This document shows, piece by piece, positions 1-17,875 of a stretch of DNA of 50,087 nucleotides. Location of the stretch: the IMG/VR virus record IMGVR_UViG_2529292836_000016; one strand, 5' to 3'. A model generated the notes under the pieces. It saw nothing but the letters and a program-made list of their open reading frames with translations. It did no database searches and was not told the DNA's origin. The first letter of the stretch is position 1; the number at the start of each line of letters is the position of its first letter. This DNA comes from a virus (Duplodnaviria > Heunggongvirae > Uroviricota > Caudoviricetes). The position numbers and the translations under genes were made by a program.

Positions 1-843
1 AAGCGTTTCAGAATCACTGTTGGTGGCGCTACTGAGCTGAACAAGGCCTTTTCGCGTTGTGGTGGCGTCCTGTGCAGTGTATTTCCCGTTAGCAAGGTCA
101 TATGCTGCCTTTACCGCTTTCGGCGTTGCGGCGAGCGTTTCAGACGTGCTGTTGGTGGCACTACTGAGCTGGACAAGGCCTTTTCGCGCTATGGTGGCGT
201 CCTGTGCGGTATATTTCCCGTTAGCAAGGTCATACGCGGCCTTTACCGCTTTCGGCGTTGCGGCCAGTGTTTCAGACGTGCTGTTGGTGGCGCTACTGAG
301 TTGAACAAAGCCTTTTGCGGTCAGCGAGGCGTCCGGGTGACGTCGTGACTGTTCATGTTCTTTCAGTTTGTCATTCACGTAATCCACTGTGGCCATAACC
401 ATGGTGTTATCCACGGTAAGCGCCACGGTGGCAGTGCTGGATACGGTCAGAATGGTGCGAAATGTTTGTACACGTCCGGATCCTTCGGCAACGGCTGGCT
501 TGTAACTTTCCGCAGTATTGCCCACCGCGATCAAATCGCCGTGCTCATCAAATACACCAATTTCCCGGATCCAGAATCCGCCCGTTTCAGGAGGAATAAC
601 CAGCTCCGCAATAATGCGGTTCTGATGTGTTGCGTCCAGGATGACGCGATTAACAGTATGTCGCCACACCTCATGCACCAGACGGGTCTGCTTACTGTCT
701 GGTGTGGGCAACGTGCCGCCACCGTCGCCCACGGCCATATGAGTCAGGCGGACAGGCTTACCATCTGGCGCGGCTGCCTGAGCTAATTTTTTTGCACCCG
801 TATCGGTGATAACGGTTTTAAATTTTCGTGTTGTGGTACTCAT
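1..843 (-). CDS. H: Tail fibre protein, P2 gpH-like; N-terminal part only, gene continues past window start
   Basis: Minus-strand frame opens at ATG 841-843 (MSTTTRKFKTVITDTGAKKLAQAAAP...), an N-terminus typical of P2-family tail fibres; contains 42-aa repeats '...LSSATNSTSETLAATPKAVKAAYDLANGKYT...'. Absent from ORF track because it is edge-truncated. Sits directly downstream of gpI as in P2. Confidence 0.75.
   Translation of the reverse strand, partial: MSTTTRKFKTVITDTGAKKLAQAAAPDGKPVRLTHMAVGDGGGTLPTPDSKQTRLVHEVWRHTVNRVILDATHQNRIIAELVIPPETGGFWIREIGVFDEHGDLIAVGNTAESYKPAVAEGSGRVQTFRTILTVSSTATVALTVDNTMVMATVDYVNDKLKEHEQSRRHPDASLTAKGFVQLSSATNSTSETLAATPKAVKAAYDLANGKYTAQDATIARKGLVQLSSATNSTSETLAATPKAVKAAYDLANGKYTAQDATTTRKGLVQLSSATNSDSETL
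19..330. repeat. 126-bp tandem repeat, about 2.5 near-identical copies, inside the tail-fibre gene
   Basis: Units starting near 20, 146 and 272 ('gttggtggcgctactgagctgaacaaggccttttcgcg...') differ by only a few substitutions; period is a multiple of 3 and encodes a repeated 42-aa fibre motif on the minus strand. Confidence 0.8.
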
Positions 844-12662: not shown

Positions 12663-13469
12663 ATGAAAGATAACAATCAGAAAAAAATGATATGGCATGT
12701 TGCCTGTGATGAATCTGGCGTTGATGGGCAGCCATTCTACGGATTTGGGAGTCTCTGGATGAGCTATCAGAGGCGCGCTGAACTCACTCGCATGGTACAG
12801 GATTTGAGAAAAAAGCATGGATGCAGTGATGAGCTCAAATGGCAGAAAGCACATTCAAAGCGTAATGCAGCTTTTTATAGCGACGTCATTGATGTGTTTT
12901 TTAGGCACAACTGGATGGCTTTTCACTGTATTATTGTTGAGAAGTCTAAAGTAGAAAAATCATATCATGGTGGGGATTATGATCTTGCAATGCGTAAGCA
13001 TTTTTGCAAGCTTATTGAAACCAAAATAGGTAACGTGATCCAAAGGTGGCCTCATGCGGAATGTGAGTTCCTTATAGAAGTTGATCCCCTGCCATCTCGT
13101 TACAAAAAAGCCGATGAAGAGTTTCACATAATTGCCAACCATTCTCTGGCCCGAAAATATGGGCGCAAGGACATAATTAAACTAGTTGAAACAAAAGACT
13201 CAAAAACATCGGAACATATTCAGCTTGTCGATTTTTTATTAGGGGCTGTAATGTGTGCATATCAAAGGAAAGCCACTTCTCCAGCGAAACTGGCTATGGC
13301 AGAGAAAATCGCTTCTTATCTTGGGTGGGAATCATTACGGCACGATACCTGGCCGACAGAACGAAAATTCAATATCTGGTTGTTTTTTGATAAAAAGAAG
13401 GGGCCAAGAGATATTGAAACGAAAGAGGTTAATTTGCGATATAAATTACCCCCTTTGCGTAAAAAATAG
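12663..13469 (+). CDS. DUF3800-like protein (cargo at the P2 old/tin-equivalent locus)
   Basis: 268 aa; N-terminal 'IWHVACDESGVDGQP' resembles the DUF3800 D-E-S-G signature; markedly lower GC than flanking phage genes; convergent with parMR. Confidence 0.5.
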   Translation: MKDNNQKKMIWHVACDESGVDGQPFYGFGSLWMSYQRRAELTRMVQDLRKKHGCSDELKWQKAHSKRNAAFYSDVIDVFFRHNWMAFHCIIVEKSKVEKSYHGGDYDLAMRKHFCKLIETKIGNVIQRWPHAECEFLIEVDPLPSRYKKADEEFHIIANHSLARKYGRKDIIKLVETKDSKTSEHIQLVDFLLGAVMCAYQRKATSPAKLAMAEKIASYLGWESLRHDTWPTERKFNIWLFFDKKKGPRDIETKEVNLRYKLPPLRKK

Positions 13470-13700
13470 CGCCAACCTCTCAGCTGGCGTGGTTGGAGTC
13501 CCAGTCTGACGACGAAGTTACCAACTAGGCGGTATCAACTTTTGGGGGGCCGCCTCTAAATCCCCAAAACCTTGAAATCTGCGTAAAACATAACGTTGAA
13601 AACGTTTAAATTCAATAAATTTTTCTGTGAATCGGGGCGTCTATATCTGCCCCTCTTAAGTTTAGCTTCACTTCCCCTGGGGATGCTTCACCGTATTGCC

Positions 13701-14012
13701 TTATTCGGGGAATAACGCCCTGATATTTCCGGCCATCTGACTGGTTATCTGTGCGGTTGGTACTGGCTGTGACACGGGGCGTTCTGTCCTGGTTTGTGTC
13801 ACGGATAACGCCTCATCGTCAGCCCATGCAGCTAGTCGGTAAGCCTCTGCTGGATTCATTTTCAGAAGTGCCAGCCCAGCCAGAAAAGCCACGCGTTGGC
13901 CGCTTTTGCGGGCTTCTGGTGTAAGGCTGTCCAGCCAGGCGCATGCTTCGCTTTCGTTCTTGACGGCCGCAGGCTTCAGATAGAAACTTATCCGTCTGGT
14001 TGGTGTCGTCAT
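13701..14012 (-). CDS. parR: ParR-like partition adaptor
   Basis: Trimmed to 'MTTPTRRISFYLKPAAVKNESEACAWLDSLTPEARKSGQRVAFLAGLALL...', resembling plasmid R1 ParR N-terminal RHH region; immediately downstream of parM. Start uncertain. Confidence 0.55.
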   Translation of the reverse strand: MTTPTRRISFYLKPAAVKNESEACAWLDSLTPEARKSGQRVAFLAGLALLKMNPAEAYRLAAWADDEALSVTQTRTERPVSQPVPTAQITSQMAGNIRALFPE

Positions 14013-14016
14013 TGGT

Positions 14017-14976
14017 TTACTCCTTGTCCATTGCGTACAGCCCATTAACCAGAGCAAACTGTGGCACCCCGTCCGCGATGAAAGTCGCATTAACTCCGCA
14101 GGCTTCGCGGATAGCGGGTGCCACAATCTCCGCCCCTCCACCGACAACCATCACCCGCCCGTAACCGGAAAAACCCGCCAGCGCGCGGATCACTCGTTGT
14201 TTCAGTGTCTCCTCCTTTTCACGAATAACCGCCATCAGGCTGTTGTAATGCGCGTCATTGTGAATGTGCTGGCGCAGCCAGGCTTCATCGTGACGGTGCT
14301 CAATAATGGTATTGGCGATGTGGTGACTGGTACGCATACCGTTAGTGGCCATCACCGACAGTACGGCATCGGCCATCAGGGAAACGCCTACGTGTGGATC
14401 GCAAAACACCTGGCTGATACCTGCCAGTTGTCCCTGAACCTTTGCCACATCCAGCGTGGTTCCGCCTAAATCCACAATCAGCAGGGATTCAAACGGACTC
14501 ATGTCAGCCAGTGCCTTAAAGCCAGCCGGAATGGATTCAGGCATAACCCGTACATTACGGATAGTGAATGCTTCGCCGTTCTGGTATTCCACCGGGCGCA
14601 TAACGTTCGCTTTTTTGCGGTTGATGTTGGCCATGTCCGGCTGTGCGTTTGTGTCGAAATACTCGCTCAGTGGCAGGGTGACAACCACATCCACCTCCTG
14701 TGGCGTGATGCCTGATTTGACCAGCGCGTGATGAATGGCAATGACATTCACATCACTGTACTGATATTGCGTGTCAGTCGTCTGGACAAAGCGATCGCTG
14801 ACCGGATCAAAACCATAGCGCACGCTATCAAGCATGTAGTTCGCGGGCTGCGTGCCACCGAACGGCGCAGACCATTCCGACTTGAAGCTGTTCGGGCTGA
14901 TGGCGTTGCGGCGTTCGCCGTTCTCAGTCCATGCCAGCTTGATGTTGGTGGAGCCGTCGTCGATACAAATTTTCAT
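14017..14976 (-). CDS. parM: ParM/StbA-family actin-like segregation ATPase
   Basis: 319 aa; 'ICIDDGSTNIKLAW', 'YSDVNVIAIHHAL', 'VMPESIPAG', 'LIVDLGGTTLD', 'VMVVGGGAE' match ParM (plasmid R1) motifs throughout. Confidence 0.85.
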   Translation of the reverse strand: MKICIDDGSTNIKLAWTENGERRNAISPNSFKSEWSAPFGGTQPANYMLDSVRYGFDPVSDRFVQTTDTQYQYSDVNVIAIHHALVKSGITPQEVDVVVTLPLSEYFDTNAQPDMANINRKKANVMRPVEYQNGEAFTIRNVRVMPESIPAGFKALADMSPFESLLIVDLGGTTLDVAKVQGQLAGISQVFCDPHVGVSLMADAVLSVMATNGMRTSHHIANTIIEHRHDEAWLRQHIHNDAHYNSLMAVIREKEETLKQRVIRALAGFSGYGRVMVVGGGAEIVAPAIREACGVNATFIADGVPQFALVNGLYAMDKE

Positions 14977-15004
14977 GTCGATTTTCCTTATGTTGATTAA
15001 TTAA

Positions 15005-15118
15005 TCGTTTACGGGATTTTTAAATCCCGTTTTCGCCTGTTTTGTGCGCGCTTCATATATCGCGGCGCGTTTTTTGCTCATTTACGGGATTTGTGAATCC
15101 CGTTTCTGTCTGTTTTTT
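15005..15118. repeat. Two copies of an about 38-bp direct repeat, each with a TTACGGGATTT/AAATCCCGT palindrome
   Basis: Copy 1 about 15007-15045, copy 2 about 15078-15116; located at the parM 5' flank and gene A 3' end. Confidence 0.5.
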
Positions 15119-17875
15119 GTTTCTACTGGTCAGGCCACCCCGCAGCAGGTCTGCTTTGCGGCGGGCGCGTTCAGTTGTTTCACTGATTCTCTGTGCGTGC
15201 TCTGCGTCACGAATGGCGCGCAGCATGTCAGAAAGCACGGTAACGGGGGTTTTCATGGTGTTCTGGTCCTGCTGAAGTGTGGATGCCAGACGTGCGGCGG
15301 CTTCGGGGTCTGATGCCCCCAGCTGTTCCAGATAGCTGGCGACCGGGTTATGGCGGATCTCCGTGCTGCTTACGCCGTGATTACGGCTCAGGTGCTGCCA
15401 GAGCTGCGTGATTCGGCTGTCCGGGCGGGTATCCGGTTTGCGTACAATTTCAAATCCCTGTGGTGCAATGATGCTGCCGTCAACGTACAGGCTGCCGCCC
15501 CGTAACAGGTGCTGCATCTGCTGTTCACCGATATGCAGGCCGAGAGATTCGGCAGATTCCCGCCATTCTTTAGCGAGTAATTCGTGGTTATCAGGCAAAG
15601 GCCGTGGCTGTTTGCGGCTCTGTGTCCAGTTCTGCATTTCATCACTGCTGTTTTTTGCCTGCTTGTCACGCAGCGAACGCATCAGCGCCCGGCGTTCGTG
15701 CCGTTTCAGTGAGCGCATCCATTCGTTCACTTCAACGCCGTCAGGGAGCTGCGGCCACGGTGCTGGCCGTTCTTCCGGCTGTTCTGTCCCGTTGTTGCCT
15801 GTTTCCTGTACACGGGGACAGTTATTGCCACGAGTCCAAGGGGCGGCAGGGCCGCCCTGAAGGTCAAAACCATTTTCGCGGGCGCTGTCTTCCGCTTCCG
15901 GTTTGCGTCTTACCAGCTTCCAGTTATCCGGATGCGTGCACACACGGGAGGATTCCCCGATGAGTGGTGACCAGATCCCGTAAATCTGTACGCTCTGTTC
16001 GCCGTAATCGTTCAGCTCATCTGCGAGGTCGTAGGCGGTGCGAATCAGGTAGTCTTGGCGTGGAACAAGTACGCCGCCCTGTTTCTCTATGTAGGAGGCA
16101 AAACACCCGGCATCAGCGGCAGCGAGCACTGCATCCATTGCGTCATCCTTCAGCCGTTGCGGGCCTTCCGGGTTGCGTGCCATCTGGCTGGCAAGGCGGC
16201 GCAGTTCACGCCACACCTGACGGGAGGGGATGCCAAAGAACTGGAACTGGCGGACCCGGTGAAGGCGCGCCCAGCCGATGGCGCGCTCCACGCTCTCGGC
16301 CATTGATTTTCCGGTTTCGTGGTCAACGCGTGGCTTGCCCGTTTTCGGGTCGATACCATCCACGGCGCGGCTGTCCAGGTTCTTTCCGATGTAGGTGGCG
16401 ATGTAGCTGGTCGGTGTGCCTTTTGAGCCGTCGACGTACTCTGCCTTAAAGCGTGGGGTAATATCATCACCCAGCTCGTGACGATCTTCCTGAATGGCAA
16501 TATCGCGGGTGTGGGACACAATGGTGTCGATTTCTTCCGGATGAGCAAAGACCATCATATGCCAGTGCACGGTGCCGTCATGGTGAGGCTCCACCGTGCG
16601 GATGCCATACCAGCGCAGGCCGTCGCGGTTCAGTTTCTTGCGGACCGCCGCAAAAAACGAGTTAACCAGGTAATCGCTGGAGTCGCGCATAGTGGCCCCG
16701 TTCCATTTGGGATTCGGATGACCGTTCTCCGTTGTTGCGTGGTACTTCGAAGGGGTGGTGACAGTCAGAAACACCGCTCTGTCGCCACGGGCTTCGGCCA
16801 GAAGTTCCAGCCCCTTCATGGTGGCCATCATTTCTGCCTTACGGTGAACCGGGTTACTTACTCCCGCGTAATACACTGTCTCAAGATCAATCGTGAACCC
16901 GTCTTCGTTTTCCAGCATGAAACTTTTCAGGAAATCGCGTGTTTTCTCGCGCTGTGCGCGAAACTCGCTTAACGCATCCTGGCTCAGATAGGGCGATGTT
17001 TTTCTGGAAACCAGACAGGCGGCGCGGAGTTGTTCTTCTCTCCACTCGCAACGTAACAGCCACAGTTTGCGTTTCCACCATTCCGCACAGGTCAGGCGAA
17101 GGATTGCGCCCGGCAGCAGCTCCGTGTCTGGTTCGTTCCTCCGGCCTTTGTCTGTTGTCAGTGCGTCATAATGCGGAGGCATGGCGTGCAGGTGTAACGC
17201 CATGCGGGCCAGCATCTGATACGCCTTCAGCGTTACATCCATGGTCAGCTCGCCATCAGTCGCACCAAAGCCATCGCAGAGTTTTTCGAAGGTGCTGCTG
17301 AACATCGCCGCCGTCATGGTGGCCAGCGTCTGTATCTGGTGTTTGTTGAGCTGCGGCAGGTAAAGCAAATCGTCCAGGCGTTCGCGTCCGGCAAGGGAGC
17401 GATAACCCGGTGTCAGCCAGTGTCCGTCAGTGCGATCCAGACGTTCGAATATTTTGCGCAGGGTTCCGCGTGCATAGCGTTCTGCCTGCCAGCTCTTTTT
17501 GCCTTTCCGGCGATCGACTTCCTGTTTTTTGCGCAGGAAGGAGAGGTGGCGAATAAGCGGATCGCGCAGATAGGACGGCAGCAGGCGCAGCGAGGCCATG
17601 GCTTCATCCACCGCGCCGCGTGCCTGTCTTCTGGCGTCTCCTGCCAGCGTGATGGTTTTGTCCTGTTTTTCCTGTGCGTCCAGGCTTTTATTAATCAGGT
17701 TGCCCAGTGGCGTGGCAGAGAACGCCGCATCAGCCTTTTCCTGTCGGCGCTCGTTCTCTGCCTGGTAGGCATCCAGCCAGGAGGAAAGCGCGGATTCAGG
17801 TGCGGGGATCCCCGTTCCTTCACGCCCCACTGCGTGGCGCGGTTGTTGCCAGTCCCTGATGTACTCTGTCGTCAT
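15053..17875 (-). CDS. A: Replication initiation endonuclease gpA-like (rolling-circle Rep)
   Basis: 940-aa ORF (true start may be internal); 'VEPHHDGTVHWHMMVF' HUH-type motif and 'YIATYIGKN' tyrosine motif typical of P2 A family. Confidence 0.8.
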   Translation of the reverse strand: MTTEYIRDWQQPRHAVGREGTGIPAPESALSSWLDAYQAENERRQEKADAAFSATPLGNLINKSLDAQEKQDKTITLAGDARRQARGAVDEAMASLRLLPSYLRDPLIRHLSFLRKKQEVDRRKGKKSWQAERYARGTLRKIFERLDRTDGHWLTPGYRSLAGRERLDDLLYLPQLNKHQIQTLATMTAAMFSSTFEKLCDGFGATDGELTMDVTLKAYQMLARMALHLHAMPPHYDALTTDKGRRNEPDTELLPGAILRLTCAEWWKRKLWLLRCEWREEQLRAACLVSRKTSPYLSQDALSEFRAQREKTRDFLKSFMLENEDGFTIDLETVYYAGVSNPVHRKAEMMATMKGLELLAEARGDRAVFLTVTTPSKYHATTENGHPNPKWNGATMRDSSDYLVNSFFAAVRKKLNRDGLRWYGIRTVEPHHDGTVHWHMMVFAHPEEIDTIVSHTRDIAIQEDRHELGDDITPRFKAEYVDGSKGTPTSYIATYIGKNLDSRAVDGIDPKTGKPRVDHETGKSMAESVERAIGWARLHRVRQFQFFGIPSRQVWRELRRLASQMARNPEGPQRLKDDAMDAVLAAADAGCFASYIEKQGGVLVPRQDYLIRTAYDLADELNDYGEQSVQIYGIWSPLIGESSRVCTHPDNWKLVRRKPEAEDSARENGFDLQGGPAAPWTRGNNCPRVQETGNNGTEQPEERPAPWPQLPDGVEVNEWMRSLKRHERRALMRSLRDKQAKNSSDEMQNWTQSRKQPRPLPDNHELLAKEWRESAESLGLHIGEQQMQHLLRGGSLYVDGSIIAPQGFEIVRKPDTRPDSRITQLWQHLSRNHGVSSTEIRHNPVASYLEQLGASDPEAAARLASTLQQDQNTMKTPVTVLSDMLRAIRDAEHAQRISETTERARRKADLLRGGLTSRNKKQTETGFTNPVNEQKTRRDI

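What the first reader, a model, noticed from the sequence alone, without database searches (positions are those of the whole stretch)
15005..15118. Paired palindrome-containing direct repeats at the parM 5' flank and gene A 3' end
Two about 38-bp units, each with a 9-bp palindrome (ACGGGATTT..AAATCCCGT). Their position upstream of parM suggests a parC-like centromere or ParR operator; alternatively a gene A 3' end structure or origin element.
Basis: seen in the sequence. Interest (0 to 1): 0.45.

Follow-up and report, generated by a model that had tools for sequence, protein, structure and literature searches.

The report
Probable ParR centromere in P2-like prophage
Two 42-bp repeats, each centred on a GGG-N10-CCC dyad, lie just upstream of an actin-like parM gene in an integrated P2-family prophage. 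They are most likely the docking site (centromere and operator) for the ParR adaptor of a plasmid-type partition system. This is an expected kind of element with an unusual two-dyad layout, and no binding has been shown.

Summary
Two 42-nt direct repeats (15005-15046 and 15078-15119) share 35/42 bases and start 73 bp apart. Each holds a palindrome: ACGGGATTT-TT-AAATCCCGT is perfect, and the other matches 8/9. Shuffled sequence gives none.

All genes here are on the minus strand, in the order gpA, repeats, parM, parR. The element is a P88-like (Xuanwuvirus) prophage integrated next to yecA.

The best reading is a parC-like ParR-binding site. Three points support it:
- Hafnia and Plesiomonas P2-like prophages (ParM 62-63% identical) keep two GGG-N10-CCC dyads at the same distances from the parM start and 72-73 bp apart. 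The coding sequence upstream of them is unrelated.
- The half-sites are 11 bp apart and resemble plasmid iteron cores.
- The region carries the strongest 10.5-bp-phased A-tract array in the 50-kb window, as R1-type parC does in its own locus.

The origin alternative is rejected, because the P2 ori nick core lies about 700 bp away, inside gpA. Hairpin and terminator readings are not conserved outside the P88 clade.

It is not a canonical R1-type parC: there are no 5+5 direct iterons, and no good promoter lies between the units. ParR binding and partition activity are untested. The gene pair in P2-like phages has already been noted in the literature; the cis site has not.

The parts
15078..15119 (-). 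Distal 42-nt repeat unit. It lies inside the last ~22 codons of gpA.
   Evidence: family D1. The gpA tail is polymorphic, with frameshift variants at the A6 tract in related prophages, so protein coding does not explain why the unit is kept.
15084..15103 (.). Distal dyad ACGGGATTT-GT-GAATCCCGT (core GGG-N10-CCC). Proposed binding site for two ParR dimers.
   Evidence: GGG-N10-CCC sits at -125 from the parM ATG, matched at -128 in Hafnia and -131 in Plesiomonas.
15047..15077 (-). 31-bp spacer between the units. It is variable in the population and holds the gpA stop codon (15055-15053).
   Evidence: pi 0.06. No conserved sigma-70 promoter is found here.
15005..15046 (-). Proximal 42-nt repeat unit, intergenic between gpA and parM.
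   Evidence: family D1.
15011..15030 (.). Proximal dyad ACGGGATTT-TT-AAATCCCGT (perfect 9+2+9). Half-site centres are 11 bp apart.
   Evidence: GGG-N10-CCC sits at -52 from the ATG, matched at -55 in Hafnia and -59 in Plesiomonas.
14996..15024 (-). Weak candidate parM promoter: -35 TTTAAA (15024-15019, in the centre of the proximal dyad), 17-bp spacer, -10 ATTAAT (15001-14996). The ATTAATCAA box (15001-14993) is conserved across lineages.
   Evidence: My own PWM scan: score 5.8, 99.87th percentile. The stricter scan does not call it. Hafnia has the equivalent TTCATT-18-TATATT. The box is invariant in alignment A4. This part is inferred only.
14990..15122 (-). Array of A-tracts (AAAC motifs on the minus strand at 15115, 15105, 15072, 15042, 15032 and 15010) phased at about 10.5 bp. 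This predicts bent DNA.
   Evidence: One search gives the positions. One search shows the strongest 10.5-bp AAA periodicity of the whole 50-kb window, in the 126-bp frame that starts at 14990.
14017..14976 (-). parM, an actin-like segregation ATPase (319 aa).
   Evidence: Pfam StbA_N and ParM_N. E 7e-92 to R1 ParM PDB entry 1mwk. 46-52% identical to plasmid ParMs.
13701..14012 (-). parR-like adaptor (103 aa). The N-terminal TRRISFYLKP is the presumed ribbon strand, and the C-terminal NIRALFPE is the presumed ParM-binding tail.
   Evidence: PF10784, E 4e-24. Alignment with R1-type and other ParRs.
13470..13489 (-). Terminator-like hairpin plus T-run on the minus strand, downstream of parR. Probable end of the gpA-parM-parR transcript.

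Best explanation
The two repeat units are the cis-acting site (parC-like centromere and operator) of a type II ParMRC partition module. The module sits next to gpA in the gpA-to-portal accessory region of an integrated P88-like, P2-family prophage.

Proposed mechanism (inferred):
- ParR is a ribbon-helix-helix family dimer. It reads the ATCCC/GGGAT half-sites.
- Each dyad offers two inverted half-sites 11 bp apart, that is, on one face of the helix.
- The two dyads lie 73 bp apart, about 7 helical turns, within a run of helically phased A-tracts. Bound ParR and bent DNA could therefore form one wrapped or U-shaped complex.
- The ParR C-terminal tails would then capture ParM filament ends, which push copies of the DNA apart.
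- The proximal dyad overlaps the -35 of a weak candidate parM promoter, which would give ParR autoregulation.

What is shown: the repeats, their position, the identity of ParM and ParR, the conservation of the two-dyad layout with the par module, and the A-tract phasing.

What is inferred: ParR binding, complex geometry, promoter use and partition activity. Also inferred is that the DNA acted on is the excised or replicating circular phage genome rather than the integrated prophage.
For: 1. Gene context. ParM and ParR-family PF10784 lie directly downstream. That is the position of parC in R1 and in every plasmid locus examined (PMC2241845).

2. Conservation with the module, not with gpA. GGG-N10-CCC occurs at -125/-52 (window), -128/-55 (Hafnia L091) and -131/-59 (Plesiomonas L094) relative to the parM ATG, with spacings of 73/73/72 bp. 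ParM is only 62-63% identical in those lineages. The upstream coding sequence is non-homologous: the window has a gpA C-terminus and Hafnia has a separate 167-aa ORF. The motif is rare, with 5 copies in the 50-kb window and 2 of them here.

3. ParR ribbon strand and site layout change together.
- TRR[IV]SFYL goes with the two-dyad layout (window, Hafnia, Plesiomonas).
- NRKISFYL in Serratia and Enterobacter-type prophages goes with one large GGGAAC...GTTCCC inverted repeat.
- RRKITFYL plasmids have GTTCTC iterons and R1 has AAACCC.
The AATCCC half-site fits this family of cores.

4. Half-site centres are 11 bp apart (15015 and 15026), which is the R1 iteron period (PMC2241845).

5. A-tract phasing. 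The strongest 10.5-bp-phased A-tract signal of the whole window is here. R1-type, IncL/M and other parC regions, and the Serratia and Enterobacter-type prophage loci, are likewise top-percentile in their own loci. R1 parC is reported to be strongly curved (PMC2241845).

6. In the population sample, the first 15 ParR residues vary at only a few positions in a few sequences, while the rest of ParR falls into strongly divergent allelic classes, and the dyad core CGGGAyT..AATCCyG is retained.
Against: - There is no binding or partition assay.
- There are only two dyads (four half-sites). R1 has 10 direct iterons and other plasmids have 3+3. No ParR-family member examined here uses inverted repeats.
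- A PWM built from R1 iterons does not single the region out.
- No convincing sigma-70 promoter lies between the units, and the best candidate has a poor -10.
- Within the P88 population the palindromes are not better conserved than their flanks: pi is 0.10 for the proximal palindrome against 0.02 for parM. The GGG/CCC core is less variable than the rest of the array only non-significantly (0.041 vs 0.072, p = 0.19). One CCC is CCT in about 25% of loci.
- Only three independent lineages share the layout.
- A-tract phasing is weak in Hafnia and absent in Plesiomonas.
- The prophage is integrated in nearly all genomes (1441 chromosomal places against 2 on plasmids), so a need for a centromere is not obvious.
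Confidence: 0.68

Rival explanations
1. The palindromes act as RNA or DNA hairpins that terminate plus-strand transcription. That transcription would be antisense to parM and run toward gpA, for example read-through from the convergent cargo gene. On this reading ParR is not involved.
For: On the plus strand both hairpins are followed by T-rich tails. One search lists 15084-15103 as terminator-like, and the commonest haplotype of the proximal unit reads ...AATCCCGTTTTTGCC. Both strands fold far better than shuffles, with z scores of -4.4 and -5.9.
Against: - The cargo gene already has a terminator-like site at 13470-13489, 1.5 kb earlier.
- In Hafnia and Plesiomonas only 3-4 bp (GGG/CCC) can pair and there is no T-run, yet dyad position and spacing are kept.
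- Population variants break pairs on either strand without a consistent pattern.
- Any palindrome folds well, so the z-scores do not discriminate.
- There is no Rfam match.
Confidence: 0.07
2. The units are a replication element of the phage. They would act as hairpins in the strand displaced from the gpA nick and serve as a lagging-strand priming signal, or as part of ori.
For: The units lie about 700-840 bp downstream of the ori-like nick core on the strand that rolling-circle synthesis would displace (from the P2 annotation and the match). Palindromes of this size can fold in single-stranded DNA.
Against: - The P2 nick-site core (GCCGCGCCTCGGAGTCCTGTCAATAACTGT) is conserved at 15818-15847 and in Hafnia gpA, and it is separate from the repeats.
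- The units co-occur with parMR and keep a fixed distance to the parM ATG, not to gpA or ori, and the upstream context is non-homologous.
- Hairpin potential is not conserved.
- The P2 annotation marks the nick site at ori as a single point inside gene A and lists no separate origin element after gene A.
Confidence: 0.05
3. The dyads are only a transcriptional operator with no centromere role. They are bound by ParR or by another phage or host dimeric regulator. On this reading the par genes are relict cargo or have been repurposed.
For: The proximal dyad overlaps the -35 of the best candidate promoter in the window and in Hafnia. Only four half-sites are present, fewer than in any plasmid parC examined. 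The prophage is integrated, so partition is not required for inheritance.
Against: - ParM is under strong purifying selection (99% amino-acid identity; pi 0.02) and the ParR tail motif N..LFP is kept. This argues that the machine is functional.
- In R1 the operator and the centromere are the same DNA (PMC2241845).
- The distal dyad, 73 bp upstream, and the phased A-tracts have no obvious role in simple repression.
- No other regulator is implicated by any test here.
Confidence: 0.15
4. The repeat is a functionless relic of a local duplication.
For: Polymorphism within the units is high. The distal copy is simply read through by gpA.
Against: The two-dyad layout, its spacing and its position are conserved across lineages with about 60% ParM identity and unrelated flanks. 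The GGG/CCC cores and the A-tract phasing are retained.
Confidence: 0.04

Closest known systems
Plasmid R1 parC-ParR-ParM (type II partition; Dam & Gerdes 1994; Hoischen et al. 2008, PMC2241845)
   Same: - The order is cis site, then parM, then parR.
- ParM is a close homologue (E 7e-92 to R1 ParM structures).
- ParR belongs to the same Pfam family, with a conserved N-terminal strand and a C-terminal N..LF tail.
- The site has two blocks separated by a spacer, an 11-bp sub-site period, a CCC-containing A-rich core, and strongly phased A-tracts (R1 parC is curved).
   Different: - R1 has 2 x 5 direct 11-bp iterons flanking a 39-bp promoter segment (159 bp in all). Here there are 2 x 1 inverted-repeat dyads 73 bp apart (about 115 bp in all), a 31-bp spacer and no good promoter.
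- ParR is only 26% identical, and the R1 iteron PWM does not pick the site out.
- The host replicon is an integrating phage, not a low-copy plasmid.
Enterobacterial plasmid parMRC loci with GTTCTC, TCTCA or TTTTCTCT iterons (loci L103, L162-L182; phage-plasmid D6, L086)
   Same: Homologous ParM (50-54% identical to Hafnia ParM, which was the query). ParR ribbon strand of the form xRKI[TQ]FY[LI]. Iteron core TTCTC is similar to the ATCCC and TTCCC cores of the phage loci.
   Different: The plasmid loci have three or more direct iterons on each side of a near-consensus promoter. The prophage site has inverted half-sites and only a weak promoter.
ParMR modules of other P2-like prophages (Hafnia L091, Plesiomonas L094, Serratia L095/L100, Enterobacter-type L097-L099 and L106)
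   Same: The same genomic slot: gpA, then parM and parR, then variable cargo, then the portal gene on the opposite strand. Hafnia and Plesiomonas share the two GGG-N10-CCC dyads at the same positions.
   Different: Only the P88 clade extends the dyads to 8-9-bp palindromes. The Serratia and Enterobacter-type loci instead use one inverted repeat of about 66 bp (GGGAACGAAATAGAAAAAT...ATTTTTCTATTTCGTTCCC) plus a second palindrome, GCCGTTTAAACGGC.
CGP3 prophage AlpC/AlpA/alpS of Corynebacterium glutamicum (PMC4446434)
   Same: An actin-like filament plus a DNA-binding adaptor, encoded by an integrated prophage. The adaptor binds repeats upstream of its own operon. It was shown to aid replication of the excised circular phage DNA rather than plasmid inheritance.
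   Different: The proteins are unrelated in sequence. The gene order is reversed (adaptor first). The cis site is 24 short TTAAnnG repeats.
Note in Rousset et al. 2022 (PMC9122126) on the P2 gpA-gpQ hotspot
   Same: States that about a quarter of E. coli P2-like phages carry a putative plasmid partitioning system at this locus. That matches 1304 of 5426 complete E. coli genomes here.
   Different: That paper mentions only the genes and speculates about plasmid maintenance. No cis site, architecture or mechanism is described.
RHH centromere-binding proteins that accept direct or inverted sub-sites (omega of pSM19035, ParG of TP228). This comparison rests on my own knowledge and was not tested here.
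   Same: Dimeric ribbon-helix-helix adaptors that bind short sub-sites about one helical turn apart, in either orientation.
   Different: They belong to type Ib (ParA Walker ATPase) systems, a different protein family.

Membership tests
Type II (ParMRC) partition locus | Actin-like ParM ATPase encoded in the locus | tested here: met
   PF06406 (E 8e-82) and PF21523 (E 1e-68). E 7e-92 over the full length to R1 ParM, PDB 1mwk.
Type II (ParMRC) partition locus | ParR adaptor gene directly after parM, with an N-terminal DNA-binding strand and a C-terminal ParM-binding tail | tested here: met
   PF10784, E 4e-24. The alignment with R1-type ParR conserves the RRxxxFxLxP and N..LFP motifs. The fold was not confirmed: the AF2 monomer has pLDDT 48 and there is no PDB sequence hit.
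R1-type parC centromere | cis site immediately upstream of parM | tested here: met
   The units lie 29-143 bp upstream of the parM ATG.
R1-type parC centromere | Two sets of several direct ~11-bp iterons (5+5 in R1) | tested here: not met
   There are only two units, each an inverted pair of half-sites 11 bp apart. Extra AAAC-type sub-repeats are degenerate. The R1 iteron PWM gives no standout. Plasmid loci show the canonical arrays.
R1-type parC centromere | par promoter located between the iteron sets and repressed by ParR | tested here: inconclusive
   No minus-strand promoter is called. My own PWM finds only a weak candidate, TTTAAA-17-ATTAAT, overlapping the proximal dyad. Plasmid parCs score far higher.
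R1-type parC centromere | Intrinsically curved DNA with helically phased A-tracts (reported for R1 parC; a supporting feature, not strictly defining) | tested here: met
   The global maximum of 10.5-bp AAA periodicity in the 50-kb window is at 14990-15115. The R1-type locus L085 is also the maximum of its own locus.
R1-type parC centromere | Specific cooperative ParR binding | not testable with these tools
   Needs EMSA, footprinting or ChIP.
R1-type parC centromere | cis-acting plasmid stabilisation and incompatibility | not testable with these tools
   Needs plasmid-loss assays.
P2-type origin (gpA nick site) | Conserved nick-site core sequence | tested here: not met
   The core is found at 15818-15847 inside gpA, not in the repeats.
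Intrinsic (Rho-independent) terminator | GC-rich hairpin followed by a U-tract on the transcribed strand, conserved among relatives | tested here: not met
   The sense (minus) strand has no U-tract. The plus strand is terminator-like in the P88 clade only. Hairpin and T-run are both absent in Hafnia and Plesiomonas.
Known structured RNA family (Rfam) | Covariance-model match | tested here: not met
   No match with E up to 1 in 14600-15500 on either strand.

The most novel reading that the evidence does not exclude
A minimal two-dyad centromere lets an integrating P2-family phage use a plasmid-type actin machine (ParMRC) on its own excised, monomeric circular genomes. This would happen during induction or infection and would position or disperse replicating phage DNA, as CGP3 AlpAC does. 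Alternatively, it could act on the chromosome locus in lysogens. About a quarter of E. coli genomes would then carry a chromosomal ParMRC centromere whose role is not plasmid inheritance.
Probability: 0.25. Interest if true: 0.65.

Novelty: new variant of a known kind. Interest (0 to 1): 0.4.

Why it matters
ParMRC is the textbook actin-like DNA segregation machine, and it has been studied almost entirely on plasmids. Here the same machine, with ParM highly conserved, sits in an integrating P2-like prophage carried by about 24% of complete E. coli genomes. Its likely cis site has a compact layout of two inverted-repeat dyads 7 helical turns apart, not the usual long array of direct iterons.

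If ParR does bind here, two things follow. First, it defines a minimal natural centromere that is useful for dissecting how few ParR dimers can cap a ParM filament. Second, it gives a handle (mutate GGG/CCC) for asking what a partition system does for an integrating phage. The candidates are plasmid-like carriage of the excised circle, positioning of replicating genomes, or nothing.

If ParR does not bind, the element is just a pair of hairpins in a variable junction.

Tried and rejected
- **R1-iteron PWM scan of the window.** The A/C-rich model is non-specific: 464 hits score at least 6, and the region does not stand out. I therefore claim only a family resemblance of cores (ATCCC, TTCCC, TTCTC, AACCC) and no sequence-level match to R1 parC.
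- **Within-clade conservation.** I expected the dyads to be colder than their flanks. They are not. The core-versus-rest difference is non-significant (p = 0.19).
- **ParR allele class against dyad haplotype.** There is no association. ParR differs mainly after residue 16.
- **RNA covariation reading of the variants.** Some changes are G.U-compatible on the minus strand and others only on the plus strand. There is no consistent signal.
- **ParR structure.** The AF2 monomer has pLDDT 48, so I did no fold search. The PDB sequence search returned nothing.
- **Rfam.** Nothing found.
- **More lineages with the two-dyad layout.**
  - The genome-contig scan gave only 3 near-identical loci.
  - Viral scans with Hafnia and Plesiomonas ParM gave 0 and 1 locus.
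  - The metagenome scan gave P88-like or plasmid-type loci only.
  - The intermediate 81% ParM (P0018) is cut at a contig end.
- **A natural control of gpA C-terminus without parMR.** None exists in the phage collection.
- **26-aa ORF spanning the spacer and proximal unit (15081..15001).** It is intact in 82/84 loci, but it lies on a T-poor strand where stop codons rarely arise, carries many non-synonymous changes and has no SD. I judged it not to be a gene.
- **Half-site ACGGGATTT with up to 1 mismatch.** It is over-represented in the window (28 against 12.6 expected). Most copies are in the host flank, so I attribute this to composition.
- **Other DNA motifs.** Cox-box, Ogr late-promoter dyad (TGT-N12-ACA), LexA, IHF and TyrR motifs were compared by eye from memory. 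None fits.

Full report
**What is in the sequence.** The repeat finder finds one clear direct-repeat family in 14600-15600. The copies are at 15005-15046 and 15078-15119; they are 42 nt long, share 35/42 bases and start 73 bp apart. Each copy holds a palindrome. ACGGGATTT-TT-AAATCCCGT (15011-15030) is perfect. ACGGGATTT-GT-GAATCCCGT (15084-15103) matches 8/9. The 20-mer with up to 3 mismatches occurs nowhere else in the 50-kb window, against 0.03 expected. A scan for any 42-nt pair of this quality at offsets of 43-200 bp finds this pair and one inside the tape-measure gene, and none in 30 shuffles.

**Context.** All relevant genes are on the minus strand.
- ORF 17875..15053 is a 940-aa P2-type replication protein gpA (PF05840).
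- ORF 14976..14017 is ParM (PF06406 and PF21523; E 7e-92 to R1 ParM structures).
- ORF 14012..13701 is a ParR-family protein (PF10784).
- The gpA stop is at 15055-15053. The distal unit therefore lies in the last ~22 codons of gpA and the proximal unit is intergenic.
- A terminator-like site on the minus strand follows parR at 13489-13470. No sense-strand terminator lies between gpA and parM.

The region is 96-97% identical to Escherichia phage P88 and other Xuanwuvirus records. In a genome with a 100% match to the 201-bp region around the repeats, it is a prophage with integrase inserted next to yecA and tyrP. The 201-bp region around the repeats occurs in 1304 of 5426 complete E. coli genomes, with 1441 places on chromosomes and 2 on plasmids. 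Rousset et al. already noted that about a quarter of P2-like phages carry 'a putative plasmid partitioning system' at this gpA-gpQ hotspot (PMC9122126). I found no paper describing its cis site.

**The repeats are not the origin.** P2 records its ori nick inside gene A. The surrounding core, GCCGCGCCTCGGAGTCCTGTCAATAACTGT, aligns with GCCGCCCCTTGGACTCGTGGCAATAACTGT in the window's gpA at 15818-15847, and with the Hafnia gpA. That is about 700 bp from the repeats.

**Hairpin and terminator readings are not conserved.** On the sense strand the hairpins are followed by A-rich sequence, not U. On the plus strand they look terminator-like, and both strands fold much better than shuffles, as any palindrome would. 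There is no Rfam match. The decisive point is comparative and follows below.

**Relatives.** ParM proteins 53-63% identical to this one are encoded in P2-like prophages of Hafnia, Plesiomonas, Serratia and an Enterobacter-type lineage. All sit in the same slot, after gpA and before the oppositely oriented portal gene.

In Hafnia and Plesiomonas the upstream region again holds two units 73 and 72 bp apart. GGG-N10-CCC lies at -128/-55 and -131/-59 from the parM ATG, against -125/-52 in the window. Alignment A4 shows GGGA, AA.CCC and an ATTAAT.AA box as invariant.

In those two lineages only GGG/CCC can pair, so a hairpin or terminator is not what is conserved. The sequence upstream of the units is unrelated. 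In Hafnia both units lie in the 3' end of a separate 167-aa ORF that has no similarity to the window's gpA C-terminus. The gpA C-terminal 200 aa are confined to the P88 clade. In a few P88-like loci the gpA tail is frameshifted at the A6 tract. The units therefore belong to the par module, and gpA merely reads into them.

**Resemblance to known centromeres.** R1 parC is two sets of five direct 11-bp iterons around a 39-bp promoter segment. It is bound at about one ParR dimer per iteron, is strongly curved, and forms a U-shaped complex (PMC2241845). The R1-type locus L085 shows exactly that array. Many plasmid-type loci from metagenomes show 3+3 direct 11-bp iterons (GTTCTC, TCTCA) around near-consensus promoters.

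The window differs. It has two dyads, each made of two inverted half-sites whose centres are 11 bp apart. The spacer is 31 bp, is variable, and has no good promoter.

The similarities are as follows.
- Position upstream of parM.
- The 11-bp sub-site period.
- A core (AATCCC) that fits the series AAACCC (R1), GTTCTC (plasmids) and GTTCCC (Serratia-type phages).
- A ParR ribbon strand that changes in step with the site type: TRR[IV]SFYL with two dyads, NRKISFYL with one large GGGAAC...GTTCCC inverted repeat, RRKITFYL with GTTCTC, and RRTIAFKL with AAACCC.
- A-tract phasing. AAAC motifs on the minus strand at 15115, 15105, 15072, 15042, 15032 and 15010 are spaced by multiples of about 10.5 bp. 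The 10.5-bp AAA periodicity statistic reaches its maximum for the whole 50-kb window exactly here. R1-type, IncL/M, L103 and the Serratia and Enterobacter-type phage loci are also top-percentile in their own loci. Hafnia is at the 95th percentile and Plesiomonas shows no signal.

**Weaknesses.**
- A PWM made from the R1 iterons does not pick the region out.
- Among 84-137 P88-like loci the palindromes are not colder than their flanks (pi 0.10 for the proximal palindrome, 0.05 for gpA, 0.02 for parM).
- The GGG/CCC core is lower than the rest of the array only non-significantly (0.041 vs 0.072, p = 0.19).
- One CCC is CCT in about a quarter of loci, and the window's perfect palindrome is a minority haplotype.
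- ParR falls into strongly divergent allelic classes after residue 16, while residues 1-15 vary at only a few positions in a few sequences. There is no association between ParR class and dyad haplotype.
- These within-clade data neither support nor refute binding.

**Promoter.** The strict scan finds nothing on the minus strand. My own PWM finds TTTAAA (15024-15019, the centre of the proximal dyad), a 17-bp spacer and ATTAAT (15001-14996), at the 99.87th percentile but with a poor -10. Hafnia has TTCATT-18-TATATT at the equivalent place. The Enterobacter-type loci have TTTAAA-17-TATAAA centred on their second palindrome. This suggests an operator overlapping a weak promoter. Expression may depend largely on read-through from the early gpA transcript, which would fit a role after induction. 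This paragraph is inference.

**Mechanism proposed.** ParR dimers occupy the four half-sites. The two dyads, 7 helical turns apart on bent DNA, form one complex. The ParR C-terminal tails (N..LFP, conserved) couple that complex to ParM filaments.

P2-type phages replicate to monomeric circles (established P2 biology, from my own knowledge). The natural substrate would therefore be excised or replicating circles. This parallels the prophage CGP3 AlpAC/alpS system, which aids replication of excised phage DNA (PMC4446434). One complete P88-like genome is deposited as a 34.5-kb circular 'plasmid', joined between int and the methyltransferase/ogr end, as expected of an excised circle. This does not prove stable carriage.

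**Verdict.** The repeats are real and are most probably the ParR-binding site of a prophage ParMRC module (confidence about 0.7). This is a known kind of system whose gene pair has already been noticed in P2-like phages. The cis-site layout is non-canonical and previously undescribed, and its biological role is unresolved. Interest is moderate.

Noticed in passing
window 13701-14012 (parR) and loci L002-L081: ParR is highly polymorphic among otherwise near-identical prophages. There are at least 2-3 strongly divergent allelic classes after residue 16, while ParM stays about 99% identical and ParR residues 1-15 and the terminal N..LFP are kept.
   Followed up: partly
window 15111-15117 (A-run in the gpA tail) and related loci: In 3-4 of 84 related loci a length change near the A6 run shifts the gpA frame. 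gpA then ends about 9 codons earlier, at a stop that overlaps the ATG of the small ORF. The last ~20 residues of gpA seem dispensable.
   Followed up: partly
window 15001-15081, minus strand: A 26-codon ORF (MSKKRAAIYEARTKQAKTGFKNPVND) spans the spacer and proximal unit in the +1 frame relative to gpA. It is intact in 82/84 loci, but it lies on a T-poor strand, has no SD and carries many non-synonymous changes. It is probably not a gene.
   Followed up: partly
window 15818-15847, minus strand: Conserved counterpart of the P2 ori nick-site core lies inside gpA. It is also present in the Hafnia prophage gpA.
   Followed up: yes
window 14993-15001: An ATTAATCAA box just upstream of the parM Shine-Dalgarno is conserved in the window, Hafnia and Plesiomonas despite about 60% ParM identity. 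It may be a -10 region or a leader element.
   Followed up: partly
window 1-42 and 133-174: The only other 42-nt direct repeat of similar quality in the window (35/42, offset 132). It lies at the window start, inside the tail tape-measure gene, and is probably a coding repeat.
   Followed up: no
window 12663-13469 (+): A DUF3800 gene convergent with parR occupies the variable cargo slot of the gpA-portal hotspot. Relatives carry other cargo there: HicAB, a KAP NTPase, a methyltransferase, and an HTH plus Peptidase_M78 (PF06114) protein.
   Followed up: no
L187 (NZ_CP148288.1, 34,461 bp): A complete P88-like phage genome with int, cox and repressor genes is deposited as a circular E. coli 'plasmid'. 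Its junction is between int and the methyltransferase/ogr end, as expected of an excised circle. This bears on whether these phages can persist extrachromosomally.
   Followed up: partly
L090 (NZ_JBQPOM010000071.1, Vagococcus sp. WN89Y): A P88-like parM locus with ParM 97% identical appears on a 226-kb contig of an assembly labelled Vagococcus, a Firmicute. This is probably contamination or mislabelling.
   Followed up: no
L095, L097, L099, L100, L106 (upstream of parM): Serratia and Enterobacter-type P2-like prophages have a different presumptive par site. It is a ~20-nt-arm inverted repeat (GGGAACGAAATAGAAAAAT...ATTTTTCTATTTCGTTCCC, 66 bp from GGG to CCC) plus a second palindrome, GCCGTTTAAACGGC, whose centre carries a -35-like TTTAAA.
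   Followed up: partly
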